DNA of 64,000 bases from Parcubacteria group bacterium M6-OD1-3 (lineage in GTDB: Bacteria > Patescibacteriota > Minisyncoccia > Moranbacterales > UBA9337), in NCBI GenBank assembly GCA_003056165.1, contig LSNR01000014.1, positions 6,408-70,407 of the forward strand, in the 5' to 3' direction. The notes below the pieces were generated by a model. That model had not been told where the DNA came from and did not search any database. It saw only the letters and a list, made by a program, of their open reading frames with translations. Shown piece after piece: positions 7,348 through 64,000 of this stretch; within the stretch, counting starts at the first letter, position 1, and each line of letters opens with the position of its first letter. The position numbers and the translations under genes were made by a program.

Positions 7348-7597
7348 ATTTTTTGTATGTTATTTTTTTTATTGACATTTAATATTTCTATATTGTCCTT
7401 CTTGCAACATAATAACACATTAATATTATAGCATAGTTTAAATTATCTACAATTTTTTAAATACTTACAAAAATGTCATATCTTAAATTTAAAAAATTTA
7501 AGTTCAAAAAGCTTGAAATTTTAAATTAATAATGGTATGGTTATAGTTAATATTGAAAAAATGTAGTTCTTATAAAATAAATTTAGGAGGATGTATA

Positions 7598-13181: not shown

Positions 13182-13254
13182 GCCGAAATAGCTCAATTGG
13201 TAGAGCAATTGTTTTGTAAACAATAGGTTACCGGTTCAAGTCCGGTTTTCGGCT
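13182..13254 (+). tRNA. tRNA-Thr (anticodon TGT)
   Basis: Manual cloverleaf: acceptor gccgaaa/tttcggc, anticodon loop tttgtaa, T-loop ttcaagt. Confidence 0.8.
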
Positions 13255-13264
13255 CAAGAAAGAT

Positions 13265-13292
13265 TGATAAAAAGTTGAAAGTGAGTATAATT
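13265..13292 (+). promoter_or_regulatory. promoter TTGATA-16-TATAAT driving the tRNA-Tyr/Thr block
   Basis: Consensus-like -35/-10 about 18 nt upstream of the partial tRNA copy. Confidence 0.5.
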
Positions 13293-13309
13293 AAAATATT
13301 GGGTCGGTG

Positions 13310-13325
13310 GCAGAGTTCATCCAAA
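13310..13325 (+). other. 16-nt duplicate of the tRNA-Tyr 5' end (gggtcggtggcagagt) followed by unrelated sequence; partial pseudo-tRNA
   Basis: Exact match to the first 16 nt of the full tRNA-Tyr 81 nt downstream. No T-arm follows. Confidence 0.6.
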
Positions 13326-13390
13326 GGCTGATATAGGTCATGCCCAGAAAGATTATCTTAAAATTAAGATTGGTTAGGTTAATTGAATAT

Positions 13391-13474
13391 GGGTCGGTGG
13401 CAGAGTGGTCAAATGCATCAGACTGTAAATCTGACGACTTCGGTCTACGGCGGTTCAAATCCGTCCCGGCCCAC
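13391..13474 (+). tRNA. tRNA-Tyr (anticodon GTA), long variable arm
   Basis: Anticodon stem-loop tcaga-ctgtaaa-tctga, long variable arm, T-arm ggcggttcaaatccgtc. Confidence 0.85.
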
Positions 13475-13482
13475 ATAAACCC

Positions 13483-13555
13483 GCCCGGGTAGCTCAGCTG
13501 GTAGAGCATTTCCATGGTAAGGAAAAGGTCACCGGTCCAAGTCCGGTCTCGGGCT
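13483..13555 (+). tRNA. tRNA-Thr (anticodon GGT)
   Basis: Acceptor gcccggg/ctcgggc, anticodon loop atggtaa. Confidence 0.85.
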
Positions 13556-13616
13556 CAGTAAATATTAAAAAGGTAGCTTATGGATAGTATAACTGTTCAA
13601 ATGTTACGACAATAAA

Positions 13617-13775
13617 ATGGCAAATGAAAAATTAGTTAGAATGAAATGTACAGAATGCAATAATATCAATTATTATACGAATCGAAACAAGAAAAAACTT
13701 AAAGAAAAATTGGAGTTAAAAAAATATTGTAAATTTTGCAGAAAACATACCGTTCATAAAGAATTGAAAAAATAA
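13617..13775 (+). CDS. rpmG: 50S ribosomal protein L33 (52 aa; below the ORF-track size cutoff)
   Basis: Translation [52 protein letters not shown] has the L33 zinc-ribbon CxxC...CxxC pattern. Confidence 0.85.
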
Positions 13776-13798
13776 ATTTTGCAAGAAGGCTGTTTTGC

Positions 13799-13906
13799 AG
13801 TGGAAAGTTAGAGTCAAGGCGGACCTGTCAAACTTTCTGTTAGTTTAATTGTAAGTTAGTGAAAAGTTAGATACAGGCGGGCTTGTCCGACGAAGCGAAG
13901 CGTAGG
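13799..13906 (+). repeat. conserved pre-tRNA element, copy 1 (gtggaaagttaga...caaggcggacctgtcaaactttctgttagtttaat...taagttagtgaaaagttaga)
   Basis: About 80% identical to the element at 47016..47100. Both immediately precede tRNAs that share an identical 19-nt 5' end. Confidence 0.6.
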
Positions 13907-13976
13907 CGGGTGTCGTATAGTGGTAGTACAGGAGTCTCCAAAACTTCTAGCGGGAGTTCGATTCTCTCCACCCGTG
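13907..13976 (+). tRNA. tRNA-Trp (anticodon CCA)
   Basis: Anticodon stem-loop ggagt-ctccaaa-acttc, T-arm gggagttcgattctctc. G1-U72 wobble in the acceptor stem. Confidence 0.7.
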
Positions 13977-13984
13977 CGGATTAA

Positions 13985-14011
13985 AAAAATCGCTTGATTG
14001 AGCGATTTTTT
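13985..14011 (+). terminator. rho-independent terminator (aaaaatcgcttgattgagcgatttttt)
   Basis: Hairpin followed by a T-run directly after tRNA-Trp. Confidence 0.7.
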
Positions 14012-14084
14012 GGTAGGCAATTTAATAAGACTGAGTGGAGATTAGAACTTTTTAGCATATTTTTGCAGGTATGACATTTCTAAA

Positions 14085-15140
14085 TGTAATTGACAGTAAG
14101 AATTTTTGTTTTAGGCACATACATTTGTCGGTTCTTGTATTTCATTTAAACTATAATCTTTTAAAAATTTATTAGGACTTTTTCCATTTAAACTACAATG
14201 TCTTAAATTATTGTAATACATATTCCATAACCTAACACGATATTTCAATTCTTCCACATTAGCAAATTTCTCTCGAGAGTATAATCTTCTTTGATCACTA
14301 CCATGACTTCTTTCAACTGTTCCATTTTGAGTTGGACTACCTTTATCAATTAAGTAATGCATAATATTAAGTTTAGCACAAAATACATCCAATTGATGCA
14401 ATTTAGGATTCATTGGATCAGAACTTTTTAAATAGCCAGTATATCTATTAGTAAAAATAGCATGATTATCTGTTTTGATAGCCTTAATTTTAAAAGGAGC
14501 TTTCTTGAGTATTTTTTTTAAAAATATAATTGAATAATGATTAGATTGTCCATCATATATTTCTAAATGTCTCCATCTGCTAGATAAATCTATAGCTGTA
14601 AACTGATAATATCGCTTACCAGCAATCTTTCCTGGTACATATTTAACATCTATTTTTATCATTTCTCCGGGATTCAGTTTACTTCTAATATATTTGTATC
14701 TAATCCTTTTTCTTCTATATTTCTTAACTAAACTTTCCGCTTTTAATATTTTACCAATTGTTCTTTCATGAATATTAATACCTTCTTCTTCTAAATCCCA
14801 CTTTATCTTTAAAGCACACTCTTTCTTTTCTTTTCTTTTCTAATTTCAATAATTTTTTCTTTGATTCGAATAGAAATTTCCCTGGGATGTGTTTTAGGTC
14901 TAGTCGATTTAGATTCTAAACCTTTTTCTCTATATCTCCTATAGCTACTTAACCACCTTTCCAAACTTCTTTTACTATATGGACATATTTTAGAAACATC
15001 TACCAACTTAACTTCTTTTTTATAGATAGGAAGTATCCATCTTAATCTTTCCTCTTTAATTGTTTTTGACATATTTATACACATACATCAGAATATCTCT
15101 ATTCTGGGAAAACCGCCAGATGTTTGTGCATATTACATTT
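14085..15140 (-). mobile_element. IS481-like insertion sequence (boundaries approximate; only a weak 9-bp inverted match aaatgtaat/attacattt seen at the ends)
   Basis: Contains an HTH plus DDE (rve) transposase. It sits where secE-nusG would be expected after rpmG and tRNA-Trp. Confidence 0.45.
14111..15084 (-). CDS. IS481-family transposase in two frames (orfA 14809..15084 HTH; orfB 14111..14839 DDE integrase core), joined by a -1 frameshift within the GA-rich tract 14812..14839
   Basis: orfA has an HTH (KICPYSKRSLERWL). orfB has rve-like motifs (QFTAIDLSSR..., NGTVERSHGSDQRRLY, LNGKSP). The -1 frame is open across the agaaaagaaaagaaaagaaag tract. Confidence 0.6.
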
Positions 15141-46451: not shown

Positions 46452-46525
46452 GGACGATTAGCTCAGCTGGTTAGAGCGCTTCCCTTACAAGGAAGAAGTC
46501 ACTGGTTCGAATCCAGTATCGTCCA
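46452..46525 (+). tRNA. tRNA-Val (anticodon TAC)
   Basis: Anticodon stem-loop cttcc-cttacaa-ggaag, T-arm actggttcgaatccagt. Confidence 0.85.
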
Positions 46526-46760
46526 CTAAATATAAAGAAGCGACAAAGAAGTAATGAATTAAGGTAATTAGTCACAGCTAGCAAAGAGTCAAAAACTTTG
46601 TGTAGAGAGTTTATTCCCGATATAAACTTGCAGGGTATTGAGATACCCTATCGATACTGTGAGTCATTGCGGATTATATTTAGGATAACATTTGTCAGTT
46701 GGCTGATAGGCGGTTTGTTTAGCCATTAAGATTGAATGAAGTTTGAATAACTGTGATATA

Positions 46761-46832
46761 GGGACTATAGCTCAGTGGTAGAGCGCACGGCTCATAACCG
46801 TTTGGTCGTAGGTTCGAATCCTGCTAGTCCCA
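46761..46832 (+). tRNA. tRNA with CAT anticodon (elongator Met or Ile2/lysidine). G1-C72 paired, so not an initiator.
   Basis: Anticodon loop ctcataa, T-arm gtaggttcgaatcctgc. Confidence 0.7.
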
Positions 46833-46849
46833 CTAAATTGAAAGTTAAG

Positions 46850-46923
46850 AGGGCGTATAGCTCAGTTGGTTAGAGCGCAACACTGATAATGTTGAGGTCC
46901 CAGGTTCAAATCCTGGTACGCCC
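46850..46923 (+). tRNA. tRNA-Ile (anticodon GAT)
   Basis: Anticodon stem-loop caaca-ctgataa-tgttg, T-arm ccaggttcaaatcctgg. Confidence 0.85.
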
Positions 46924-47015
46924 ACAAGTAGTCGGCGAACTTGCCAAACTTTCTATTGAAGTATAAAATTTATATATTAATCGAAACGATATAAATATTT
47001 AGTGAGTTTAATAAT

Positions 47016-47100
47016 TATAAGTTAGTGGAAAGTTATGATCAAGGCAGGCCTGCCAAATTTTCTGTTAGTTTAATCTATAAGTTAATGGAAAGTTAGACAG
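47016..47100 (+). repeat. conserved pre-tRNA element, copy 2 (taagttagtggaaagtta...caaggcaggcctgccaaattttctgttagtttaat...taagttaatggaaagttagac)
   Basis: Homologous to 13799..13906. Contains internal direct repeats taagtta.tg.aaagtta and the palindrome gcaggcctgc. Confidence 0.6.
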
Positions 47101-47172
47101 GCGGGTGTCGTATAGTGGTTATTACACGTCCTTGCCAAGGATGAGACGGCGGTTCGATTCCGCTCACTCGCT
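47101..47172 (+). tRNA. tRNA-Gly (anticodon GCC)
   Basis: Anticodon stem-loop cgtcc-ttgccaa-ggatg, T-arm ggcggttcgattccgct. Its first 19 nt are identical to tRNA-Trp at 13907. Confidence 0.8.
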
Positions 47173-54385: not shown

Positions 54386-54889
54386 ATGAATAATAAAACG
54401 AAATTGTTAAATATAATAAAGAAAAGCAAATTGACAAATAAAGAACAGAATGATTTTGGTAAATATTTGAATAGTTTAAGGTTTGATAATTTAGAGCGAA
54501 TGATAAAAATGTTTGGAAATAAATCGAATGAATTAGCTGATTTTTGGTTGAGCTTGAGGACAAGAATTTTTTTACTCCAAGAAATAGATACAAGTAATAA
54601 AATTATAGAAGTAGAAAAAGAAAAAATCAAAAAAAGTATTATAGATATGAATGATGAGGAATTTTATGCTTGTGTCTATACGATGAAGATTGAGGCTAAT
54701 ACGACGAAAGTTGATTTAGATAGGAAAATCAAAAATTTATTAAAAGCAGAAAAAGAAAATCATCAGAAATTTGTAGAAATATCAAATAATTTATTAAGGG
54801 GTATTTTTAAAAAACAAGCAAAAAAAGTGAAGAAGAATGATGAACAAAGATATGAGAATGTACTTAATAAAATTAAAGGATTGAACTAG
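54386..54889 (+). CDS. hypothetical soluble helical protein
   Basis: ORF with no recognised motifs. First gene of a five-gene unknown block. Confidence 0.35.
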   Translation: MNNKTKLLNIIKKSKLTNKEQNDFGKYLNSLRFDNLERMIKMFGNKSNELADFWLSLRTRIFLLQEIDTSNKIIEVEKEKIKKSIIDMNDEEFYACVYTMKIEANTTKVDLDRKIKNLLKAEKENHQKFVEISNNLLRGIFKKQAKKVKKNDEQRYENVLNKIKGLN

Positions 54890-54893
54890 AAAT

Positions 54894-55820
54894 ATGAGAG
54901 ATGAAATAAAAGTTAATAATGATAGTGGCAGAAAATCTTTGGAGCAATTAAATTTTAGCTACCACAAAGAAGTCATCTTCAATCAGAAAATATCTTTAAT
55001 GGATAACAGAAGAATAGAGGAATATGGTATAATTAAAGAATTAAATCAGGAAGTGGAAAACAGTGGGAAAAGAAAAGGTATTATGCGTAGACTTGAAGAG
55101 GTTGCTGGTAAGAATAAACTTTTAAGAGGAGCTATCGTTGCTGGAATACTATTGACAACGGATTCAGCGATTGGTCGAACGGTTATAAATAATAAGGAAG
55201 TCAATAATGCAATGACAAATTTTATACAAGGAATTCGTGTTGAGAAAAAAACTAGTAATGAAGAAATTGATACTCAAAGAAGATTTGTGGAAGGAATAAA
55301 TAATCCAAATAAAGAGAATTTTACTGAAAAAACTGAAAAACAAGAGGAAATAAAGGAAAAATTTGTAGAACCAAAAAAGGGGACATCAGAATATTATCTT
55401 TGGAAGTTAATGCCAGGTACAAAAGAAGAAAAAGAGAAAATAATTAAAGAGCGTCGACGAGAGCAAGTGGAAAAACAATCAGCTAAAGCTTCAGACGAAG
55501 AACAATTAGGAAAAAAAATTAATATAAAAAACGGTAGATTTAATTTACGACCAAGCCAATCTATTCGTCGCATAGTTTCTCCCGAAACAACTTTATATAC
55601 AATTGAGATTCAAAAACAACAGCAAGATTTACGGCAAAAGTTATTAGATAGTAATAACTATAATTTTCCAAAATCTAATATCCACATCAATCCAGATGCT
55701 AGTGTCGGTAATGTAGACGCAAATTCTAGTGCCAGAGTAAGAATTGGTCCGAATGTTCAGGTGGGAAATATAGAAGCGGAAGATAATGCGGACATACAAA
55801 TTGGCACTGCAAGATATTAA
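54894..55820 (+). CDS. hypothetical protein with one TM-like segment and C-terminal V/G/N repeat (NVDANSSARVRIGPNVQVGNIEAEDNADIQIG)
   Basis: The ORF abuts the previous gene's stop, suggesting translational coupling. Confidence 0.35.
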   Translation: MRDEIKVNNDSGRKSLEQLNFSYHKEVIFNQKISLMDNRRIEEYGIIKELNQEVENSGKRKGIMRRLEEVAGKNKLLRGAIVAGILLTTDSAIGRTVINNKEVNNAMTNFIQGIRVEKKTSNEEIDTQRRFVEGINNPNKENFTEKTEKQEEIKEKFVEPKKGTSEYYLWKLMPGTKEEKEKIIKERRREQVEKQSAKASDEEQLGKKINIKNGRFNLRPSQSIRRIVSPETTLYTIEIQKQQQDLRQKLLDSNNYNFPKSNIHINPDASVGNVDANSSARVRIGPNVQVGNIEAEDNADIQIGTARY

Positions 55821-55825
55821 TCACT

Positions 55826-57346
55826 ATGAGTAATAAAAAAGAAAATTCGTTAGCTGAAGGAGATAATAAAGAAAAAGCATCAAAAAATAATTTGGTTGAT
55901 AAATTAAAAGAGATAGATGTAATTGGGAAAGAGGAGGAAAGTATATTGAAATTATTACAAGATGAATTAAACGATTTTAAAAGTGAAGAGTTAGATACGA
56001 AGAAAAAAGAAGGTGGTGTTTTGAGCAATTTGGCGGAAATATACAGGAATAATAAACTGTTAAAGGCTACAATAGTTGGATTAAATATATCAATAATTAT
56101 ACCTGAAGTAGCGATTGCAAAAAATTTAGTAGGAGCTAATGGTTCAATGTTGGAGCTTAAAAGTAGCGACAGTTTAAATTCTGCGACTAAATTGCTCTTG
56201 GAACAATTAAAAATTGGAAAAGTCGACAAGAATTTATTAAATGCCCAAATATCAAGTGTAGATGTTGATAATGTGGAAGCTAATAAGATAGAGGAAAAAC
56301 AAGGATATAAATCTGATGAAGAGGGAGCAAATACTCAAGAAATGCGTGCAGTTATTGATGCAGTTCTTCAACATAAAAAATATCAAGAAAAATTAGTTGA
56401 AAGATATGGTGAAGATGGGGCTAGAGAGTATATCAATAAAATAAAAGAGCAAGAGGATCGAATAATTGGACCAAATGGTGAAGATTGGTATAATGAAGAA
56501 GATGTAAAAAAAGGTGTAATTGTCAATGAACAAAGGAATAGTTCTGATTTTAGATTGGATAAAAGTAAAAAATATACAGTAGAACATACGAGAAAAGAAG
56601 TTATGCAACATATTGGTAGTGAAGATTATCTAAATAAACTAACAAAAGAATTCAATGGTGACGAGAATAGAGCCAGAAAAGAACAGAAAAAAAGAGTAAA
56701 TCGTGTCAAAAATGCCGAAGTGAATATTAAAGCTGAAAGGACTTCAGGAGAGATTTATAATATGCTGAGAAGACAAGCGAATGGAAATATCCCTAAAAAT
56801 ATAGTGGGAAAAGAAAGGAGAAAAATACTAACAAATATAGTTGAATATTATAAAAAATATTTTGCACGGAGAGAATTATACGGTTTTAGTATATTTGATA
56901 ATAGTGAAAAAATTTATATTTTTAAAGATACTCCTAAAGGAGAGAAGTTCGATAATAGTATTAGGCATGAGTTTTTGCATAGTAGCACCCGTGGTGATAA
57001 AAATATTTCAGAAAAGGTGAAAAATATTCTTAGCGAGACATTTCGGTCTAGTAATAGAAGGAAAGAGCGTGTAATGAATGATTATTTATTAGGTAGTTCG
57101 GAGAGACTTGTTAGGAAACAACAGTTAGATTATCAATTAGAAGAGTATGGAATTAAAAAATATGGAGAAAAATTTACTAGAAAGCACTATGATGCTATAA
57201 TGCAAATGTATAATATAGGTGCATTTAGTGAAGATGTAGAACAATTTATAAGAACAACAAAACCTGATTATAAAACATTTAAAGAGATTTTTGACGAAAT
57301 AGCAAAAAATGAAGATGAGAAAAAGCAACAGGAAGGGACAGTATAG
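55826..57346 (+). CDS. hypothetical protein with HExxH (HEFLH) motif; possible zincin-like metallopeptidase
   Basis: IRHEFLHSSTRGD at about aa 380. The N-terminal region is weakly similar to the preceding ORF (NKLL..IV.G segment). Confidence 0.35.
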   Translation: MSNKKENSLAEGDNKEKASKNNLVDKLKEIDVIGKEEESILKLLQDELNDFKSEELDTKKKEGGVLSNLAEIYRNNKLLKATIVGLNISIIIPEVAIAKNLVGANGSMLELKSSDSLNSATKLLLEQLKIGKVDKNLLNAQISSVDVDNVEANKIEEKQGYKSDEEGANTQEMRAVIDAVLQHKKYQEKLVERYGEDGAREYINKIKEQEDRIIGPNGEDWYNEEDVKKGVIVNEQRNSSDFRLDKSKKYTVEHTRKEVMQHIGSEDYLNKLTKEFNGDENRARKEQKKRVNRVKNAEVNIKAERTSGEIYNMLRRQANGNIPKNIVGKERRKILTNIVEYYKKYFARRELYGFSIFDNSEKIYIFKDTPKGEKFDNSIRHEFLHSSTRGDKNISEKVKNILSETFRSSNRRKERVMNDYLLGSSERLVRKQQLDYQLEEYGIKKYGEKFTRKHYDAIMQMYNIGAFSEDVEQFIRTTKPDYKTFKEIFDEIAKNEDEKKQQEGTV

Positions 57347-57400
57347 GATAAACGCAATACTATAAATAATAATTTTAAAAATTAAACAAAAATAAATACT

Positions 57401-58282
57401 ATGGAGAAAAACAATAAAGTCCCAATGGGGATAGTCGTTACATTAATAGTGTTAGTAATAGTACTTATCGGAGTTATGATCGCCTTAATGATAAAGATGA
57501 AAAGCGAAGTAAATAATAATAATATAAATTTTGGTAATGGAACAAGTAGTCTACCTAGAAATACTAAAAATGTTTACAATAATGATGATATGCCAATGAA
57601 CAAAAAAATTATTTTTAATAATTTTTTCAAAATTAAATCTGAAAAGCAAAATAATGCTATAACTAATGTGGCTGGTGAAGAGATATTTACAGGTCCTGAT
57701 CAGGAATATAACCAACCATCAAGTATAGTTTATAATTTTACAGATCCCAATAATCAAGAGAAATATCTTTTTATTGATTTAAATTTATATGATCTACAAT
57801 CTATCGAGAAGTATGAAAATAAAAAATGGGAATATTTTAATGTTCTAGAAGAAGTGAGGGATGTGTTGGGGGGAGAGTCAACACTAAATGAAGATAGTTT
57901 TCAGTCGTCAAATGATTTAATATTTCCATCTATTCCAGCTAGTTGTTCAACACCAACTCATAGTAAATTTATTAAAACAAATTTTTTATCTGGATTTAGA
58001 TTTACAACAAATTGTACTCAAGAATATGCACCTATTAAGACAGTTACATATTTTTTCGATGGATTGAGTAATAATGGTAAGTACCATATTACTTTTGAAT
58101 ATTCAGATCTGAAAGTAAAATCCATAGAACAATATTTTTCAGAAAATCCAGATGAAGAATCGAGTAATGAAGTTAATGTTATAGAAAAAACAACTAATTT
58201 ATTTGAAAATGAAAATGATAATAATTTTACGCCGTCATTACTTAAAATTGATAAATTTATAAAATCTATTCAGTATAAATAA
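57401..58282 (+). CDS. N-terminally membrane-anchored extracytoplasmic protein, hypothetical
   Basis: TM helix IVVTLIVLVIVLIGVMIALMI followed by an N-rich ectodomain. Confidence 0.35.
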   Translation: MEKNNKVPMGIVVTLIVLVIVLIGVMIALMIKMKSEVNNNNINFGNGTSSLPRNTKNVYNNDDMPMNKKIIFNNFFKIKSEKQNNAITNVAGEEIFTGPDQEYNQPSSIVYNFTDPNNQEKYLFIDLNLYDLQSIEKYENKKWEYFNVLEEVRDVLGGESTLNEDSFQSSNDLIFPSIPASCSTPTHSKFIKTNFLSGFRFTTNCTQEYAPIKTVTYFFDGLSNNGKYHITFEYSDLKVKSIEQYFSENPDEESSNEVNVIEKTTNLFENENDNNFTPSLLKIDKFIKSIQYK

Positions 58283-58310
58283 TAATCTTAAAAATTAAAC
58301 AAAAAATATT

Positions 58311-58775
58311 ATGGAAAAAGAAATGGTTATTAGTGATAAATCTGTTGAGAGTAGAATAAAACATTATGGAAAGCAACCGTCAGAGAAAATATTGACGCCT
58401 GAAAAGCAAAAAATTATGCAAGAAAACTTAATTAATGAGTTTAAGAAATTAGGAGAAAAAGATGATATTATGAAAATTGCAGAACAAGTCTTAAAGCCAA
58501 AGCCAATTTTAGAAGTTGAAGTTTTGGAAGATGAAGTTCTCCATATTATTTATGGAGAAGAAAAAGAAGGGGATGGAAAAGAAGATATAATAGTATCAAA
58601 AAATCAGGATGATAATTTCGTTGTAAAATCATTTTATTTTGATTACATTGCAAGATCAGATTATCCTAGTTTTTCTGAACTTTTGGAAAATCCTATTTCT
58701 AGAGAGGATGAACGAAATAGGACGGGAGGAAAACGAGGAAGTTTAGATTATCATGATAATAAAGATTATAAATAA
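58311..58775 (+). CDS. hypothetical acidic soluble protein
   Basis: ORF with no recognised motifs. Confidence 0.3.
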   Translation: MEKEMVISDKSVESRIKHYGKQPSEKILTPEKQKIMQENLINEFKKLGEKDDIMKIAEQVLKPKPILEVEVLEDEVLHIIYGEEKEGDGKEDIIVSKNQDDNFVVKSFYFDYIARSDYPSFSELLENPISREDERNRTGGKRGSLDYHDNKDYK

Positions 58776-58786
58776 AAATAAACAGT

Positions 58787-60283
58787 ATGAAGTTTGCAAA
58801 ATTGTTTTTTTTAGGTAGTTTTTTTTTAATTTTGTTTTTTCAGATTGAAATTGCTCAAGCATATATTTCAAGAGATGAAGCGAAAGATCTTTTAGGAACA
58901 CAATTTATTGAAGCATCAGATCAGAATGTTGATGCATATAGACAAAGTATCAATGTTGGGATGAGTAATGAACAAGCTGTAGATAATGTAAACCAAGCAA
59001 GTGCGCTAAGAAATAGCGATGGTTTGCCAACTTCTGATACTGTTTCTACTAATGAAGGAAGCTGGGCTTATAATGGTGATACTTTACTTTTTACGCCAAA
59101 TCAAAGCTATAGTCCATCAGTAAATGAATCTAAAAGAAACTTTGATTACACACAGCGAAGAGCAAAAGGAATTGAGGAGGTTGTAGATGAAGATAAACTT
59201 GGTGGTGAAGATTATAATGATGCTTTTTATGACTTTAAAAGTGAATTAAATAGATCAAATCTTGCAAATACAAATGTAGGTAATTTAATGTTGCAGGAAT
59301 ATAGAGAGACAGCAGATCCAGATGAATTTATGGGTCATGCAAAAAATAAAGCAGAAGCAGATGCAATGAATAATGCAGTAGCTTATGGATTATTTGACAA
59401 GGTGGAACAAACTGCAAAAGAAAACGATATTGATCTTAATGATATTGTTGGATATAGTACGCATTTACAAATTCCGGGTGGTTATGATGTAAAAATACAA
59501 ACTAAAGATGGAGAAATATATCCGCCACCACTAAATGATAATGGAGATAGCTCTGATAACTCTGCAAGTGGTGATGACGGTGGTGCTTCAAACGGAGGAA
59601 ATCAATCAGATGGTAGTGGAAATGGCACTTCTGTTGTTACTGGAGATACTGGTGGTCTCGTCCCTTGCGGACATGGGTCAGATCCCGCCAATCGTTGTAC
59701 TCTTTGTGATTTATTTGTGGGAGTTCAGAGAATTATCCAGTGGGGAAAGAATATTTTAGTAGCAGTAGCTTTAACAGCTATGGTTGTTGGTGGAATAATG
59801 TATATTGTTTCTGCTGGAAATCAACAAATGATGGAGTCGGCAAAAAATGTTATTAAACAAGCGTTAGTCGGGGTAATAATTGTATTGGGAGCATGGTTGA
59901 TTATTAATACGGTGATGTGGTTAATAGTCGTTAAAAATGATATGGGTGTTGGAGCAGGTGGAAGTTGGTACAATTTTAGTTGTGGAGGGGGTGGGACAGT
60001 AAATACCGATGTTTTAAATAACAGTGTCAACAATGCTTTTGATAATATGTTAAATGGTTCTATAAATAATACAAATAATACTTCAAGCGGGCAAAACTCT
60101 GGTCTTCCTAGCTCAGTTTCTACATCAACATCACAACCTGCATCAACTCAAAACACGCCTCCATCAAATACAAACCCATCAAGCACACCTCCATCAACTC
60201 AAGATAGTTGTCCAGTTGGCCAGCATAGTGTTAATATAATTGATATACAAGGAAATTTGACACCAACTTGTGTTTCTGATTAA
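58787..60283 (+). CDS. secreted protein whose C-terminal domain carries the pilin-like CxxC plus two-helix motif, with S/T/N/P-rich tails
   Basis: Signal peptide MKFAKLFFLGSFFLILFFQIEIAQA. C-terminus CGHGSDPANRCTLCDLF...VVGGIMYIVSAGNQQMMESAKNVIKQALVGVIIVLGAWLI matches the downstream paralogs. Confidence 0.5.
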   Translation: MKFAKLFFLGSFFLILFFQIEIAQAYISRDEAKDLLGTQFIEASDQNVDAYRQSINVGMSNEQAVDNVNQASALRNSDGLPTSDTVSTNEGSWAYNGDTLLFTPNQSYSPSVNESKRNFDYTQRRAKGIEEVVDEDKLGGEDYNDAFYDFKSELNRSNLANTNVGNLMLQEYRETADPDEFMGHAKNKAEADAMNNAVAYGLFDKVEQTAKENDIDLNDIVGYSTHLQIPGGYDVKIQTKDGEIYPPPLNDNGDSSDNSASGDDGGASNGGNQSDGSGNGTSVVTGDTGGLVPCGHGSDPANRCTLCDLFVGVQRIIQWGKNILVAVALTAMVVGGIMYIVSAGNQQMMESAKNVIKQALVGVIIVLGAWLIINTVMWLIVVKNDMGVGAGGSWYNFSCGGGGTVNTDVLNNSVNNAFDNMLNGSINNTNNTSSGQNSGLPSSVSTSTSQPASTQNTPPSNTNPSSTPPSTQDSCPVGQHSVNIIDIQGNLTPTCVSD

Positions 60284-60332
60284 ATAAAGGCTGGATAAAC
60301 TTAATAGGTTCTTATTTTTTAACTTATATTAT

Positions 60333-60605
60333 ATGAAAGTAATAGAAACAGCTTATGCACAAACAATTGCCAATGCACCGACATTTGCTAGTATTTTTGG
60401 TTCAACATTAAATTTTTTGTTGCGAGCATTTACAATTATTGCTATAATTGGGTTAGTGGTTTCCGGAATGATTTATTTAACTGCGGGAGGAAATGAAGAA
60501 AGAATTTCTTTGGCGAAAAAAGCGTTTATGTATTCAATAGTTGGTATTTTGGTAGTTTTGGGAGCTAATATAATTATAAAACAAATTGGTAATTTATTAT
60601 TTTAA
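60333..60605 (+). CDS. pilin-like two-helix membrane protein (T4SS/VirB2-type pilin-like family), paralog 1
   Basis: IIGLVVSGMIYLTAGGNEERISLAKKAFMYSIVGILVVLGANII. Confidence 0.5.
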   Translation: MKVIETAYAQTIANAPTFASIFGSTLNFLLRAFTIIAIIGLVVSGMIYLTAGGNEERISLAKKAFMYSIVGILVVLGANIIIKQIGNLLF

Positions 60606-60635
60606 ATTGTGAATAAAAAGGAAGGAGGTGGAAAT

Positions 60636-60983
60636 ATGAAAATGAAAAAAATATTATATTCAGTATTGTCGATGGGGCTGATTGCTCCGGTTTCAATTTT
60701 TGCTTATAATCCACCAGCGAATACAACTCTTCCAGCGGGTTCGGTAACGGGAATTATTGGTAATATTATGACTTGGATGTTGGGATTGGTTGGTTTTCTG
60801 GGCGTTATTGGTTTTGCAATTTCTGGAATATTGTACCTTACTGCGGCTGGTGATGAAGATAGAATTACTACAGCAAAGAGAGCAATGACTTGGTCAATTG
60901 TCGGAGTGATTGTGGCGCTTCTTGGTGTAGTAATTATTAAAGCAGCTAACTCTATGCTTGGTGGACAAAATAGTGATTTTTAA
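60636..60983 (+). CDS. pilin-like two-helix protein, paralog 2 (signal peptide)
   Basis: RBS AAGGAGGTGG upstream of the ATG at 60636. Motif VIGFAISGILYLTAAGDEDRITTAKRAMTWSIVGVIVALLG. Confidence 0.55.
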   Translation: MKMKKILYSVLSMGLIAPVSIFAYNPPANTTLPAGSVTGIIGNIMTWMLGLVGFLGVIGFAISGILYLTAAGDEDRITTAKRAMTWSIVGVIVALLGVVIIKAANSMLGGQNSDF

Positions 60984-61125
60984 GTTTTATTCTGGAAAGG
61001 AGAATATCTTTTTAAGGATATTATCTCCTTTCCAACCAAGTGTTATTAACTAATATAAACTTTAAAAACAAAAATATTTCGAAAAATTAACCTAATGAAA
61101 TAGTTTGTTGTATAAAATTAGAATA

Positions 61126-61488
61126 ATGAAAAATAAAAAATATTTGTACAGTTTTTTGGCAATTATTTTCTCAACATTGCCAACAGTTGCTTTAGCTCAA
61201 TGGAATATGTCTAATGTCGCTACTCAGTCTAATCTACCAACTGGTACAATTTATCAAATAATCACAAATATAATGTTGTGGTTATTAGGAATTGTTGGCG
61301 TGATTGGAGTAATTGGTTTTGTTATTGCTGGTATTCTATACTTAACGGCTGCTGGTGATGAAGGAAAAATGGAATTGGGCAAGAATGCAATGACTTGGTC
61401 AATCATTGGTGTAATTGTTGCATTAATGGGTTATGTAATTATTCAGGCCGTAAATAGTATGTTAGGTGGAACAAATACCATTTTTTAG
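61126..61488 (+). CDS. pilin-like two-helix protein, paralog 3 (signal peptide)
   Basis: VIGFVIAGILYLTAAGDEGKMELGKNAMTWSIIGVIVALMG. Start is either 61105 or 61126. Confidence 0.55.
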   Translation: MKNKKYLYSFLAIIFSTLPTVALAQWNMSNVATQSNLPTGTIYQIITNIMLWLLGIVGVIGVIGFVIAGILYLTAAGDEGKMELGKNAMTWSIIGVIVALMGYVIIQAVNSMLGGTNTIF

Positions 61489-61520
61489 GTTTGCTGTCTT
61501 GAATATAATAAATAAAAATT

Positions 61521-62162
61521 GTGAAAAAAATGCTTAATAAAAAAATAATTCTGGTAATTGTGATTAGTTTTGTTTTTACAATTGGTTTTAATTTTAATAC
61601 TTTGGCAGTTACTTGTCCGGATACTGTTAACTGGGATAATTCTACTGGAGTTTGTATTCCGATTAATACTGGACTTCCCCAAGGAGCAACAACTGACCCA
61701 ATAATTGCTGTAGCGGAAGCAGTAATGCTATGGTTATTGAGAATTGTTGGAATAATAGCGGTAATAGCTTTCGTTGTTTCTGGAATTCAATATTTAACTT
61801 CTGCTGGTAGCGAGAGTCAAATTGAAACTGCTAAACGAAATATGAAATGGTCAATTGTTGGTGTTATCGTAGCATTGATGGGATTAATAATTTTAAATTT
61901 TGTTGATGATATGCTAAATGGTAATCTTTCTGGAAGAGGAATAGGGAGTGGCGGAGGCGGGGGCGGGGGAAATTCTGTGACCACCCCTGGAACAAATCCG
62001 TCAGGGACATGGATAAATCCTGATACAGGTTTACCATACAATAATAATAATACTACATCTGCCAGTAGAGGAGAAAATATTGTTAATTCGGCGATTAATA
62101 ATAGTGCTACTACAGTGCCAAATTCACCAGTGAATAATACCGATTTACCAATAGTGAATTAA
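61521..62162 (+). CDS. pilin-like two-helix protein, paralog 4, with Cys pair and G/N/S/T-rich C-terminal tail
   Basis: VTCPDTVNWDNSTGVCIP...VIAFVVSGIQYLTSAGSESQIETAKRNMKWSIVGVIVALMG, then GSGGGGGGGN. Confidence 0.55.
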   Translation: MKKMLNKKIILVIVISFVFTIGFNFNTLAVTCPDTVNWDNSTGVCIPINTGLPQGATTDPIIAVAEAVMLWLLRIVGIIAVIAFVVSGIQYLTSAGSESQIETAKRNMKWSIVGVIVALMGLIILNFVDDMLNGNLSGRGIGSGGGGGGGNSVTTPGTNPSGTWINPDTGLPYNNNNTTSASRGENIVNSAINNSATTVPNSPVNNTDLPIVN

Positions 62163-62190
62163 GAATTGTAAAAAATTTTTTTATAAAAAT

Positions 62191-62823
62191 ATGACAAAAA
62201 AATTTAAAATTATATTAATAGGAGGAATATTTAGTTTTTTAATGCTAATGAATTTTGTTCCGAATAATATTGTTTCAGCACAGTGTCCTTCTGGGGTTGG
62301 TGGTGGAGGTGATATATGTTTTAATAATCCATTGGGTTATAATACAGTGGATGCACTTTTACCAGCACTACTTAATAGACTACAAGGTGTAATTGTAGTA
62401 TTGGCGTTAGTATTTATTGTTATTGGAGCCTTGTTATACATAACTTCTGCTGGAAATGAGAGTAGGATGACTATGGCAAAAAGTGCTATTGTCGCATCGG
62501 TGATTGGTTTAGCAGTTGGAATTGCCGCACCGTCATTCTTGCGAGAAATATATGGTGCGTTAGGAGCTAATATTCCTGGTGAAGTGGCTCAATCTTTGAC
62601 AATTTCACAAATAGCTTTAAATGTCCTTAATTTTTTGCTGGGAATAGTTGGGACAATTTCAATTATTATGTTGGTGGTGGCGGGAATTATGTATTTAACT
62701 TCTGCTGGTAGCGAAAGTCAAATTGAAACTGCTAAAGCAATGACTAAATGGTCTATTGTAGGAATTATTATTGCTTTGGCGGCAATTATTATTGTTAGGC
62801 AAGTTGCTGGATTATTAACATAA
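62191..62823 (+). CDS. pilin-like protein, paralog 5, with Cys pair and two tandem copies of the two-helix domain
   Basis: AQCPSGVGGGGDIC...LLYITSAGNESRMTMAKSAIVASVIG, then a second copy MYLTSAGSESQIETAKAMTKWSIVGIIIAL. Confidence 0.55.
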   Translation: MTKKFKIILIGGIFSFLMLMNFVPNNIVSAQCPSGVGGGGDICFNNPLGYNTVDALLPALLNRLQGVIVVLALVFIVIGALLYITSAGNESRMTMAKSAIVASVIGLAVGIAAPSFLREIYGALGANIPGEVAQSLTISQIALNVLNFLLGIVGTISIIMLVVAGIMYLTSAGSESQIETAKAMTKWSIVGIIIALAAIIIVRQVAGLLT

Positions 62824-62906
62824 TCTGACATTGTTATTTAATAAATTACTTAACATTCTAAAATTGAAATTCTTTTATACTTAGAAATTTTTTTAAAAAA
62901 GTATTT

Positions 62907-62944
62907 AAAAACAGGTGGCTTGACAAGGCAAGCACACCTGTTTT
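62907..62944 (+). terminator. rho-independent terminator (aaaacaggtg...cacctgtttt, with nested gcttg/caagc)
   Basis: 10-bp stem plus a T-run after the pilin array. Also lies just 3' of the convergent minus-strand gene. Confidence 0.65.
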
Positions 62945-62946
62945 GT

Positions 62947-64000
62947 TTACTCATTCAATATCCTCCTTCTCTCAATTTTTATTGAGAGATTTTTGTTTTT
63001 GAGCTTAAAGCCAAGCTCCGGTGTATGATATTCGCCAAGCTCGCGATTAATGTTGAGCTCGGCAAATATCTTTTCTGCCGTTTTTACTCGGCAGAAAATG
63101 TTAGCGTTTTTTGTCGGAAAGACATTTGCCTTCCCTATTCGGAGCACAAGTGCTCCATAGGGTAGATTAAATGGTTTACGGACATTCTGTCCAGCGACAG
63201 AATTATCGCCTTGCCATCCGATTGTTTCCCAGGGGAGGTGCCAGAATAATTTCTGATACTCTCCGGAAAATGTTATCCGATATTCCCATCCTGGGAGGAG
63301 AATATACGGAATCCAAATTTCTCCGGTTCCCGCCTTCTCTCCATTTTCTCCTGGAACGAGATTCAGTGTTCGTTCTGAAAGCGGAACGGGGAATGTTTCA
63401 ACATCTCCCCATTTCCCGAATTTTTTCTCCACCGCCTTTTTCGGTTTGGGCGGAGGAGGGGACTCCTTCTCTCGCAGGAGTTCCACTCTGATTTCCGCCA
63501 AAGTTTTCTGAGAGCCGTTTTGAGAACTCTCCAAAAATCTGGCGTAATCTTTCGGACAAGGAGTGTTAGGATGTTCCAATACCCAAATTCTAACTTCCTC
63601 CAAATCGCTTTTGATTTGCGTCACTCTTTGTTGCTGACGCAACTTGGAGATGGCGTTGATTGAATCGGCAAGTTCATTCGGCAAAACTCTATTTAAAAGT
63701 CCGCTGAGATGAAGTTGGGTATCAATCTGCGGAAAGGTAGCGCTTAGCACAGTTGCAATTACGAAAAGCAACATTGTGATGCTGACTACTCGCAGAATTG
63801 TTCGCCCAAGTGTGCCGAATAAAATCCCAACGAGAATAAACAATGTTGGCCAAGCGATTGCCAGCCACCATTCTCGTTGGAGTGGTAGATGTGGAACAAG
63901 CAGACAAAAGCCAGCTATAAAAATGAAAAGCTGGACTGCTATGTCCCAATATAAAGCGATAAGTTTGTTGGCAGTTATTCCTTCTTCAGTCGGAATAACG
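62947..64000 (-). CDS. polytopic membrane protein with GC-rich C-terminal soluble domain; the ORF continues past the window edge (the track's TTG start at 63843 is internal)
   Basis: The same reading frame stays open from 63843 to 64000 (…VIPTEEGITANKLIALYWDIAVQLFIFIAGFCLLVPHLPLQREWWLAIAWPTL-FILVGILFG…). Several TM helices. The C-terminal 200 aa are about 47% GC against a 30% background. Confidence 0.5.
   Translation of the reverse strand, partial: VIPTEEGITANKLIALYWDIAVQLFIFIAGFCLLVPHLPLQREWWLAIAWPTLFILVGILFGTLGRTILRVVSITMLLFVIATVLSATFPQIDTQLHLSGLLNRVLPNELADSINAISKLRQQQRVTQIKSDLEEVRIWVLEHPNTPCPKDYARFLESSQNGSQKTLAEIRVELLREKESPPPPKPKKAVEKKFGKWGDVETFPVPLSERTLNLVPGENGEKAGTGEIWIPYILLPGWEYRITFSGEYQKLFWHLPWETIGWQGDNSVAGQNVRKPFNLPYGALVLRIGKANVFPTKNANIFCRVKTAEKIFAELNINRELGEYHTPELGFKLKNKNLSIKIERRRILNE

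What the first reader, a model, noticed from the sequence alone, without database searches (positions are those of the whole stretch)
58787..62823. Tandem array of six paralogous pilin-like proteins sharing a CxxC plus two-helix hairpin motif
Six consecutive + strand genes (498, 90, 115, 120, 213 and 210 aa) share a conserved core.
- The shared core reads hydrophobic helix, G(I/M)(L/Q)Y(L/I)T(A/S)(A/G)G(D/S/N)E, x(I/M)(E/T)xAK, then a second hydrophobic helix.
- Four paralogs have signal peptides.
- Three carry a Cys pair just before helix 1 (CGHGSDPANRC, CPDTVNWDNSTGVC, CPSGVGGGGDIC), which could form a disulfide.
- One paralog contains two tandem copies of the domain.
- One is a large secreted protein with the motif only at its C-terminus.
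- Two paralogs have G/S/T/N/P-rich tails.

This architecture (short, signal peptide, two TM helices) is that of VirB2/TrbC-type conjugative pilins and of the small T4SS-pilin-like proteins common in CPR genomes. Such a dense, diversified array suggests a variable surface filament or DNA-uptake/attachment organelle. No VirB4, VirD4 or T4P ATPase gene is visible in the window.
Basis: partly seen in the sequence, partly recalled or inferred. Interest (0 to 1): 0.7.

Follow-up and report, generated by a model that had tools for sequence, protein, structure and literature searches.

The report
VirB2-like pilin gene array, Moranbacteria
Six neighbouring genes of an ultrasmall (Patescibacteria/Moranbacteria) bacterium encode members of the known "T4SS_pilin" family of two-helix membrane proteins. 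Such arrays are already described in this phylum, so the locus is a well-preserved example and not a new kind of system.

Summary
Six consecutive + strand genes (58787-62823) carry seven copies of one two-helix hairpin domain.

The window is chromosomal DNA of a Candidatus Moranbacteria (Patescibacteria) genome. No VirB4, VirD4 or PilB gene lies in the window or within 8 kb downstream. Tandem arrays of 2-11 divergent VirB2-like pilin genes in Patescibacteria are already published (PMC12102498; PMC10633639), so this is a new member of a known kind.

Three things are added here:
- **Conserved order.** The array is syntenic across about 80 Moranbacteria species: a four-cysteine head protein, a leaderless 90-aa member, short secreted members, a Cys-loop member, then a tandem-hairpin protein.
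- **Conservation, not variability.** Each paralog has positional orthologs as conserved as the flanking housekeeping genes. That argues for specialised subunits and against a "variable" filament.
- **Modular head protein.** The 498-aa protein belongs to a subfamily with an invariant C-x9-C-x2-C...C frame around the hairpin, fused to swappable extracellular domains. In 11 of 48 relatives that domain is an SLT lytic transglycosylase.

Whether a filament is actually formed remains untested.

The parts
58787..60283 (+). Head protein, 498 aa. Signal peptide (aa 1-25), lineage-restricted N-terminal passenger domain (aa ~30-250), G/S/D/N linker, four-Cys-framed T4SS_pilin hairpin, S/T/N/P-rich tail with a terminal Cys-bracketed beta-hairpin.
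   Evidence: PF18895 27.1 bits. AF2 model with pLDDT 85-97 over most of aa 30-250, helices 305-344 and 346-382. The N-domain has only 3 real homologs among 1.84 billion representatives and no PDB fold match.
59666..59983 (+). Four-Cys hairpin module of the head protein (aa 294-399): C294-x9-C304-x2-C307, helix 1, loop YIVSAGNQQMMESAK, helix 2, C399.
   Evidence: C294 and C304 are invariant; C307 and C399 are >=90% conserved in 48 homologs (A3). 41/48 homologs hit PF18895 and 11/48 carry SLT PF01464. The nearest species has the module at 78% identity without the passenger.
60333..60605 (+). Leaderless 90-aa hairpin protein (no hydrophobic signal segment; N-terminus MKVIETAYAQTIANAPTF).
   Evidence: PF18895 32.1 bits and TrbC 22.0 bits, sub-threshold. 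Hydropathy. 90-aa positional orthologs in L008, L009, L010 and L012 at 58-63% identity.
60636..60983 (+). Short secreted hairpin protein, 115 aa (class 'YxPPxxTxLPxG').
   Evidence: PF18895 39.7 bits. It is the most conserved member: 70-83% identity to positional orthologs.
61126..61488 (+). Short secreted hairpin protein, 120 aa (class 'AQW...'). It is 68% identical in the core to the preceding gene, and this class is present in 1-3 copies in relatives.
   Evidence: PF18895 47.4 bits.
61530..62162 (+). Cys-loop hairpin protein, 210 aa: signal peptide, C-x12-C loop, hairpin, then a Gly-run and an N/S/T/P-rich tail.
   Evidence: PF18895 36.9 bits. The Cys pair is conserved in the gene at this position in 66/74 species loci. 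Tail length varies among orthologs, 127-213 aa. An in-frame 6-nt indel in the Gly run at 61961 separates two strains.
62191..62823 (+). Tandem-hairpin protein, 210 aa: signal peptide, C-x10-C loop, hairpin A (aa 53-124, nt 62347-62562), hairpin B (aa 138-209, nt 62602-62817).
   Evidence: PF18895 64.0 bits in two stretches. AF2 pLDDT 79.8 with four long helices: 53-85, 90-124, 138-170, 175-209. More than 120 ortholog clusters with E<1e-49. It is the last pilin-domain gene in 79/84 species loci.

Best explanation
The locus is the chromosomal 'pilin array' of a Candidatus Moranbacteria (Patescibacteria) genome. It holds six genes and seven copies of the PF18895 T4SS_pilin hairpin, the Patescibacterial counterpart of the VirB2/TrbC conjugative pilins.

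**Shown**
- Family membership of all six proteins.
- The predicted parts of each hairpin: two hydrophobic helices joined by a polar loop (Y-x-T-S-A-G-N-E...A-K), preceded in five of the six proteins by a signal-peptide-like N-terminus.
- Conserved gene order across about 80 species.
- Conservation of each paralog at the same level as the flanking housekeeping proteins.

**Inferred topology**
- N-terminus outside, helix 1 crossing inwards, the polar loop (followed by K/R at the start of helix 2) on the cytoplasmic side, helix 2 crossing outwards, C-terminus outside. This rests on the signal peptides and on where the charged residues lie; it was not tested.

**Inferred from what is known of VirB2-type pilins and of the Patescibacterial T4SS**
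- The proteins insert into the membrane through Sec, or independently of Sec for the leaderless 90-aa member, and form a membrane pool.
- A VirB4-type T4SS encoded elsewhere in the genome extracts them and assembles them into a heteromeric, lipid-associated filament or short conduit on the cell surface.

**Inferred roles of the subunits.** Because order and orthology are fixed, the subunits are specialised and not interchangeable.
- The short secreted members (genes 3 and 4) are the bulk subunits.
- The Cys-loop member with its variable tail (gene 5) and the head protein display material on the outside.
- The head protein's hairpin is probably stapled by disulfides between the pre-helix-1 Cys cluster and the Cys after helix 2.
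- The head protein carries an exchangeable extracellular passenger. In relatives this is often an SLT lytic transglycosylase, the VirB1-type activity. Here it is a rare domain of unknown fold.
- The tandem-hairpin protein is a covalent dimer, a candidate cap or adaptor.
For: **Family**
- All six proteins exceed the PF18895 gathering score.
- PF04956 TrbC/VirB2 hits are sub-threshold here, but PF04956 is among the Pfam families on record for several orthologs.
- NCBIfam's Mycoplasma-ICE 'pilin-like conjugal transfer protein' NF045849 scores 33-35 bits, E about 1e-8, for four proteins.
- AF2 gives helix hairpins. Hydropathy and signal peptides fit.

**Taxon and context**
- Homologs and 80 genome loci are almost all Candidatus Moranbacteria/Moraniibacteriota.
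- Synteny is L19-SecG-SBP5-PGI-RNase J-methyltransferase-SBP1-array.

**Order and conservation**
- The tandem-hairpin gene is last in 79/84 loci.
- 450 of 513 hairpins are closer to another species' array than to their own: median 79% against 53%.
- Positional orthologs are 54-83% identical; flanking housekeeping proteins are 58-77%.
- There are no substitutions in genes 1-4 between two strains.

**Head module**
- Four conserved Cys. SLT in 11/48 relatives. The passenger is swapped between close species.

**Link to T4SS at family level (literature)**
- VirB2-like genes lie near virB4 in 1135 of 1948 Patescibacteria assemblies, and 441 arrays of 2-11 genes are reported (PMC12102498).
- The pilin array of Southlakia epibionticum lies inside the T4SS cluster and is essential (PMC10633639; PMC12857230).
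- 13 of the 15 Moranbacteria assemblies listed in part 1 of that paper's Table S1 have VirB4.
Against: - No VirB4, VirD4, VirB6 or any other T4SS gene is in the 64-kb window or 8 kb downstream.
- None was found among Walker-A ORFs of >=500 aa within +-10 kb of 80 related loci. The local link to a T4SS is therefore missing, and it is missing across the order.
- One array-bearing assembly, GW2011_GWF2_35_54 (locus L021), is listed without VirB4 in Table S1. It is a draft genome.
- No filament of this family has been seen in any organism.
- Fold searches return only generic helical bundles. A hairpin fold cannot discriminate between a pilin and other two-helix membrane proteins.
- A profile search of PDB sequences finds no solved pilin.
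- The assignment of roles to individual paralogs and the disulfide staple are inference only.
Confidence: 0.6

Rival explanations
1. The hairpin proteins are membrane-resident parts of a monoderm T4SS channel and do not form an extended pilus. The analogue is the small signal-peptide-plus-two-helix protein TraB/TrsB ('CagC family') of Gram-positive plasmids such as pIP501 and pRE25. That protein is essential for transfer, although those systems make no known pilus.
For: - Patescibacteria are monoderm and their VirB4 clusters with the monoderm MPF-FATA class (PMC12102498).
- TraB of pIP501 has the same mature topology and is essential (PMC9083827).
- The NCBIfam near-hits are to a Mycoplasma ICE protein, from an organism without a wall.
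- No pilus of this family has been observed.
Against: - hhalign of the short-pilin profile against pRE25 TrsB gives probability 0.16%. NCBIfam gave no CagC-family hit.
- Six to nine specialised paralogs, long extracellular tails and large extracellular passengers fit a surface-exposed polymer better than a buried channel lining.
Confidence: 0.2
2. The array has nothing to do with a T4SS. The hairpin is a generic two-helix membrane anchor or oligomerisation module of a Moranbacteria envelope complex. That complex positions wall-acting enzymes such as SLT, and other surface domains, for the cell's own wall remodelling or for adhesion.
For: - No T4SS gene lies near the array in about 80 species.
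- The array sits among housekeeping and solute-binding genes.
- The head subfamily uses the hairpin as an anchor for SLT, PG-binding-type and other domains.
Against: - At family level the PF18895/VirB2-like genes are near virB4 in more than half of VirB4-positive assemblies, and are essential within the T4SS cluster of S. epibionticum.
- There is remote sequence similarity to TrbC/VirB2 and to an ICE pilin-like protein.
- Four of the six proteins carry no passenger to anchor.
Confidence: 0.12
3. The array is a set of interchangeable, rapidly diversifying pilin variants that change surface specificity or evade recognition, as proposed for the VirB2 paralogs of Bartonella and Anaplasma.
For: - Low identity among paralogs, 21-68%.
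- The literature suggests this for Patescibacterial arrays.
- Tail-length variation and a Gly-run indel in gene 5, and swapping of the head passenger.
Against: - 88% of hairpins have their nearest relative in another species, not in their own array.
- Positional orthologs are as conserved as RNase J or PGI.
- Gene order is fixed.
- There are no substitutions in genes 1-4 between strains.
- Variation is confined to the passenger and tail regions.
Confidence: 0.05
4. They are type IV pilus (T4P) pilins, or holin-like lysis proteins.
For: Small hydrophobic secreted proteins. Weak sub-threshold holin hits, E 0.04-0.13.
Against: - There is no class III (prepilin peptidase) leader and no G/FTLxE motif in any of the six sequences (read directly).
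- T4P pilins have one N-terminal helix plus a beta-sheet head, not a two-helix hairpin.
- There are no phage relatives or PHROG hits. The holin scores are far below the cut-offs.
Confidence: 0.02

Closest known systems
Patescibacterial VirB2-like pilin arrays (Pfam PF18895 T4SS_pilin), for example the six-gene essential array in the T4SS cluster of Southlakia epibionticum ML1 and the 441 arrays catalogued by Quinonero-Coronel et al. 2025
   Same: Same Pfam family. The genes are in tandem, number six, and show low identity between paralogs (about 25% on average in the literature, 21-68% here). The setting is chromosomal in a Patescibacterium, with no relaxase context.
   Different: - In Saccharimonadia the array lies inside the T4SS cluster. 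Here and in about 80 Moranbacteria species it lies away from any T4SS gene, in a conserved housekeeping neighbourhood.
- In the papers read, I found no mention of the fixed order of the array.
- I also found no mention of the four-Cys head protein with its swappable passenger (often SLT), or of the terminal tandem-hairpin protein.
VirB2/TrbC/TraA conjugative pilins of Gram-negative T4SSs (Pfam PF04956)
   Same: Signal peptide, two hydrophobic helices joined by a short polar loop, both termini outside, small size for genes 2-4. Weak sequence similarity: 16-22 bits to PF04956.
   Different: - The scores are below the family cut-off.
- The organism is monoderm.
- There are multiple specialised paralogs, a tandem-hairpin fusion and large passenger domains.
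- A disulfide frame stands where TrbC and VirB2 are cyclised head to tail. Both the cyclisation (my own knowledge) and the staple (inference) are untested here.
- No adjacent virB genes.
TraB(pIP501)/TrsB 'CagC family' proteins and the Mycoplasma ICE 'Mbov_0395 family pilin-like conjugal transfer protein' (NCBIfam NF045849) of monoderm T4SSs
   Same: Small proteins with a signal peptide and a two-helix hairpin, belonging to monoderm conjugation systems. NF045849 gives E about 1e-8 for four of the six proteins.
   Different: NF045849 scores (33-35 bits) are below its 40-bit cut-off. There is no detectable similarity to pRE25 TrsB (hhalign probability 0.16%). Those proteins are single-copy and lie inside transfer operons.

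Membership tests
Pfam PF18895 T4SS_pilin | Whole-protein HMM score at or above the curated gathering score (26.6 bits) | tested here: met
   27.1, 32.1, 39.7, 47.4, 36.9 and 64.0 bits for the six proteins. The last matches in two stretches.
Pfam PF18895 T4SS_pilin | Two hydrophobic helices joined by a short conserved polar loop | tested here: met
   Alignment A1, hydropathy, AF2 helices 53-85/90-124 and 138-170/175-209 and 305-344/346-382.
Patescibacterial VirB2-like pilin array (as defined in PMC12102498) | Two or more pilin genes in tandem, or separated by one non-pilin gene, with low identity between paralogs | tested here: met
   Six adjacent genes with core identities of 21-68%.
Patescibacterial VirB2-like pilin array (as defined in PMC12102498) | VirB4 present in the same genome, often nearby | tested here: not met
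   - Nearby: not met. There is none in the 64-kb window, 8 kb downstream, or among Walker-A ORFs of >=500 aa within +-10 kb of 80 related loci.
- Same genome: not testable with these tools.
- 13 of the 15 Moranbacteria assemblies in part 1 of Table S1 have VirB4.
VirB2/TrbC pilins (Pfam PF04956) | HMM score at or above the gathering score (27.9 bits) | tested here: not met
   22.0, 22.1 and 16.4 bits for three proteins and none for the others. PF04956 is among the Pfam families on record for some orthologs.
VirB2/TrbC pilins (Pfam PF04956) | Encoded within a virB/trb/tra operon with VirB3, VirB4 and VirB6 | tested here: not met
   The neighbours are solute-binding proteins, RNase J, a methyltransferase, unknown ORFs and GreA.
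VirB2/TrbC pilins (Pfam PF04956) | Polymerises into an extracellular pilus with bound phospholipid; processing or cyclisation of the propilin | not testable with these tools
   This needs microscopy and mass spectrometry. Fold search of a hairpin is uninformative.
Type IV pilus (T4P) pilins | Class III leader ending in G followed by F/M-T-L-x-E; a single N-terminal helix plus a globular head | tested here: not met
   None of the six sequences has the motif. The predicted fold is a two-helix hairpin.
CagC-family / TraB(pIP501)-TrsB proteins of Gram-positive T4SSs | Detectable sequence or profile similarity to TraB/TrsB | tested here: not met
   hhalign of A4 against pRE25 TrsB gives probability 0.16%, E 0.37. 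There is no NCBIfam CagC hit. The test is weak because the template is a single sequence.
NCBIfam NF045849 Mbov_0395 family pilin-like conjugal transfer protein | Score at or above the 40-bit equivalog cut-off | tested here: not met
   33.5, 35.0, 32.6 and 33.1 bits (E 1e-8 to 5e-8) for proteins 3-6; 15.9 and 17.8 for proteins 1 and 2. This indicates related but not equivalent proteins.

The most novel reading that the evidence does not exclude
In Moranbacteria the array encodes a fixed-composition, heteromeric surface filament assembled from six or more specialised VirB2-like subunits. One disulfide-stapled subunit carries exchangeable enzymes or adhesins on the filament. In many species this is a VirB1-type lytic transglycosylase, so the filament would act as a wall-piercing tool against the host cell. 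Its genetic separation from virB4 in a whole order could even mean that assembly does not depend on the classical T4SS.
Probability: 0.12. Interest if true: 0.7.

Novelty: new member of a known kind. Interest (0 to 1): 0.3.

Why it matters
The role of the T4SS and its pilin arrays in Patescibacteria is an acknowledged open question. A 2024 perspective calls the role of the T4SS in Saccharibacteria 'completely unknown' (PMC11665869), although the array is essential in the one species tested.

This locus does not answer that question. It does show that, in one large order, the paralogs are old, ordered and individually conserved. That points to a defined multi-subunit structure and away from antigenic variation.

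The fusion of a VirB1-type lytic transglycosylase to a pilin hairpin in relatives is independent domain-fusion evidence linking the family to T4SS-like wall penetration. It may also explain why free-standing VirB1 homologs look rare in these genomes. These are useful refinements for annotation and for choosing targets in cultivable relatives, not a new biological principle.

Tried and rejected
- **PDB sequence profile.** The tandem-hairpin profile found no pilin.
- **Passenger domain.** An exhaustive HMMER search of the passenger (aa 25-290) against 1.84 billion representatives gave only three real homologs. The domain is lineage-restricted and its function stays open.
- **Mobile elements.** tblastn of the 120-aa pilin against plasmids and phages and a viral-contig scan with the tandem-hairpin alignment found no matches. 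The array is not carried by a known mobile element.
- **Promoters and terminators.** The scan of 54-64 kb found no more sites than in shuffled sequence, so the operon structure is not resolved.
- **Unknown neighbours.** Pfam found no significant hit (E <= 0.001) for the five upstream ORFs or the downstream ORF. NCBIfam, run on the first four upstream ORFs, gave only one far-sub-threshold FliL hit (16 bits against a 187-bit cut-off). PHROGs found nothing for the five upstream ORFs and two downstream minus-strand ORFs.
- **90-aa member.** A homolog search returned only 10 close relatives because of the word-index limit. It could not be used to look for virB4-linked copies in other classes.
- **VirB4 near related loci.** The Walker-A ORFs turned out to be IF-2, FtsK, tRNA synthetase, Mg chelatase, PhoH and, in two loci, a PilB-type ATPase 8-10 kb away, judged coincidental.
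- **Gram-positive TraB/TrsB.** hhalign was negative.
- **Considered and rejected:** T4P pilins, holins and an antigenic-variation cassette array. See the rival explanations.

Full report
**1. What is in the sequence**

Between 58787 and 62823 there are six closely spaced + strand ORFs of 498, 90, 115, 120, 210 and 210 aa, counted from ATG starts. Gaps between them are 28-142 nt.

Aligning the seven copies of the shared core gives invariant Y, G, K and G in the motif Y-[LI]-[TV]-[SA]-[AG]-G-x-[EQ]...K...G, flanked by two hydrophobic stretches (A1). A Kyte-Doolittle scan finds two strongly hydrophobic segments per copy, and four in the last protein. It also finds an N-terminal signal-peptide-like segment with an AxA-type site in five of the six proteins. 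The 90-aa protein has none.

Cys pairs precede helix 1 in proteins 1, 5 and 6, as stated. The 'CxxC' exists only in protein 1. There it belongs to a four-Cys frame, C294-x9-C304-x2-C307...C399, whose last Cys follows helix 2.

**2. Family**

All six proteins exceed the curated cut-off of Pfam PF18895 'T4SS_pilin': 27.1 to 64.0 bits against 26.6. The last protein matches twice.

- Three proteins give sub-threshold hits to TrbC/VirB2 PF04956 (E about 2e-4). Several orthologs have PF04956 among the Pfam families on record for them.
- NCBIfam's only hit shared by all six is NF045849, the Mycoplasma-ICE 'Mbov_0395 family pilin-like conjugal transfer protein'. It scores 33-35 bits for four proteins, below its 40-bit cut-off.
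- AlphaFold2 with a 69-sequence alignment folds the tandem protein into four long helices (pLDDT 79.8). It folds the hairpin of the 498-aa protein into helices 305-344 and 346-382.
There is a significant pilin-family HMM hit and the predicted fold is a hairpin.

**3. Organism and surroundings**

- The rest of the window is ordinary chromosome: SMC, L19, RNase J, PGI, DnaK/GrpE/HrcA, MreBC, PBP2, DXS, S2/EF-Ts, Ddl, glycosyltransferases and tRNA clusters.
- The same locus occurs in NCBI assembly GCA_003056105.1 and in several Logan assemblies. Eight kilobases further downstream hold GreA and secreted surface proteins, again with no T4SS gene.
- Homologs are named Candidatus Moranbacteria, Moraniibacteriota or Parcubacteria, some of them 'pilin'.
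- A scan of one genome per species returned 80 loci, almost all from that lineage.

**4. The array is a conserved, ordered cluster**

In relatives the neighbourhood is L19-SecG-SBP5-PGI-RNase J-methyltransferase-SBP1, followed directly by the array. A hairpin HMM run over all ORFs of 84 species-level loci gives these results:

- The median is five pilin-domain genes per locus.
- The recurring order is head protein(s) of 200-500 aa, a ~90-aa member, two to five members of 110-150 aa, then a tandem-hairpin protein.
- The tandem-hairpin protein is the last pilin gene in 79 of 84 loci.

Each window paralog has its best match in the positionally equivalent gene of other species. Core identity there is 60-88%, against 21-68% among the window's own paralogs. 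Full-length positional orthologs are 54-83% identical, the same range as the flanking housekeeping proteins at 58-77%.

Over all loci, 450 of 513 hairpins are closer to a hairpin of another species than to any in their own array. The medians are 79% and 53%.

Between the window and a second strain, genes 1-4 are identical. Gene 5 differs by an in-frame 6-nt indel in its Gly run, and gene 6 by two substitutions.

The paralogs are therefore old, vertically inherited and under purifying selection. The 'variable filament' idea is not supported for the hairpin cores, and neither is the antigenic-variation analogy offered in the literature. Variation sits in the tails and in the head passenger.

**5. 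The head protein**

The 48 homologs of the 498-aa protein share only the four-Cys hairpin module. C294 and C304 are invariant; C307 and C399 are at least 90% conserved.

- In most homologs the module follows the signal peptide directly, and extracellular domains follow it.
- 11 of 48 carry an SLT lytic-transglycosylase domain, and 41 of 48 hit PF18895.
- In the window protein the order is reversed: a ~225-residue passenger precedes the module.
- That passenger is confidently modelled (pLDDT 85-97 over most of it). It has three real homologs among 1.84 billion representatives and no solved structural relative.
- The nearest species has the module at 78% identity but no such passenger. Another relative has the passenger.

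So the module is a conserved anchor or subunit with exchangeable cargo. All four Cys would lie on the outer face, three before helix 1 and one after helix 2. I therefore infer disulfides that tie the two ends of the hairpin together. This would be functionally reminiscent of the head-to-tail cyclisation of TrbC and VirB2 pilins (my own knowledge; untested here).

**6. What is known**

- Tandem arrays of 2-11 VirB2-like pilin genes with about 25% mean identity are reported in 383 Patescibacteria assemblies. They were detected with the same Pfam model, and the pilin genes lie near virB4 in 1135 of 1948 VirB4-positive assemblies (PMC12102498).
- In Southlakia epibionticum a series of predicted pilins lies within the T4SS cluster and is essential (PMC10633639). 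A review describes it as six VirB2-like pilins (PMC12857230).
- The function of the system is unknown (PMC11665869).
- Of the 15 Moranbacteria assemblies listed in part 1 of Table S1 of the first paper, 13 have VirB4.

The finding is thus a further member of a described kind. In the papers read I found no mention of three things: the fixed order and orthology of the array, the four-Cys head subfamily with SLT fusions, and the systematic separation from virB4 in this order. That paper in fact infers that VirB1 is mostly dispensable, because free-standing VirB1 homologs are rare.

**7. Mechanism, best estimate**

Shown: family membership, the parts of each hairpin, order and conservation.

Inferred:
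- Topology: termini outside, polar loop on the cytoplasmic side.
- The proteins form a membrane pool.
- A VirB4-type T4SS encoded elsewhere assembles them into a heteromeric surface filament or short conduit.
- Genes 3 and 4 provide the bulk subunits.
- Gene 5 and the head protein display cargo on the outside.
- The tandem hairpin is a covalent dimer with a capping or adaptor role.

I put this at about 0.6.

The main rival, at about 0.2, is that they are membrane-resident channel parts like TraB of pIP501. That protein has the same topology and is essential in a pilus-less Gram-positive system. No sequence relationship to it was detectable.

A T4SS-independent envelope scaffold is the next rival, at about 0.12. 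The complete lack of local T4SS linkage in about 80 species keeps it alive.

**8. Verdict**

The locus is a new member of a known kind, of modest interest. Its value lies in the refinements above, not in novelty of kind.

Noticed in passing
window 54386-58775: Five + strand ORFs (167, 308, 506, 293 and 154 aa) with no significant Pfam or PHROG hit (NCBIfam, run on the first four, gave only one far-sub-threshold FliL hit) sit between the SBP_bac_1 gene and the array. Syntenic relatives (L008-L012) have nothing there, so this is a lineage-specific insertion. The 506-aa protein contains an HExxH-like motif (HEFLH). The 308- and 506-aa proteins share a short hydrophobic motif (NKLL[RK].[AT]IVG).
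   Followed up: partly
window 62850-64000 (minus-strand gene from 62947, 436 aa in L004:14167-15477): G+C rises to 0.386, against about 0.31 elsewhere. Divergence between the window and strain GCA_003056105.1 jumps from about 0 over the preceding 14 kb to about 6.5% in this gene. This looks like a recombination or replacement boundary just after the array. The protein has no family hit.
   Followed up: partly
window 61961 (gene 5): An in-frame 6-nt length difference in the codons of a Gly run (GGGGGGG) separates strains, giving 210 and 212 aa. The tail after the hairpin in this paralog class ranges from almost none to about 90 residues among species.
   Followed up: partly
P0014 / L010:10001-11266 and 10 further homologs of the head protein: These proteins fuse the four-Cys T4SS_pilin hairpin to an SLT lytic transglycosylase (PF01464), that is VirB2-like plus VirB1-like in one polypeptide. 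The Patescibacterial T4SS survey I read does not mention them. They could account for 'missing' VirB1 homologs.
   Followed up: partly
window proteins 3-6 against NCBIfam NF045849: There are near-threshold matches (E about 1e-8) to a Mycoplasma ICE 'pilin-like conjugal transfer protein'. This suggests that monoderm MPF-FATA-type elements do have relatives of this hairpin, whereas the published survey treats VirB2 homologs as absent from that class.
   Followed up: no
loci L012, L022, L025, L027, L031 and others: Many MAG contigs that carry the typical Moranbacteria array and synteny are titled 'uncultured Bdellovibrionales' or 'Pseudobdellovibrionaceae', and one 'Candidatus Fimivivens'. These record titles are probably wrong.
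   Followed up: no
window 7553-9133: A 526-aa protein has a strong Sigma54_activat domain (E 3e-58) plus an HTH_8 domain. From my own recollection, not checked here, this would be an unusual regulator for a reduced Patescibacterial genome. No rpoN gene was looked for.
   Followed up: no
window 13182-14662 and 46452-47172: There are two tRNA clusters of four genes each. The first is followed by a 183-aa integrase-core (rve) fragment on the minus strand (14111-14662), probably an IS remnant.
   Followed up: no
L021 (Candidatus Moranbacteria GW2011_GWF2_35_54): This assembly carries the pilin array but is listed as lacking VirB4 in Table S1 of PMC12102498. Either the draft is incomplete or the array occurs without VirB4.
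   Followed up: no
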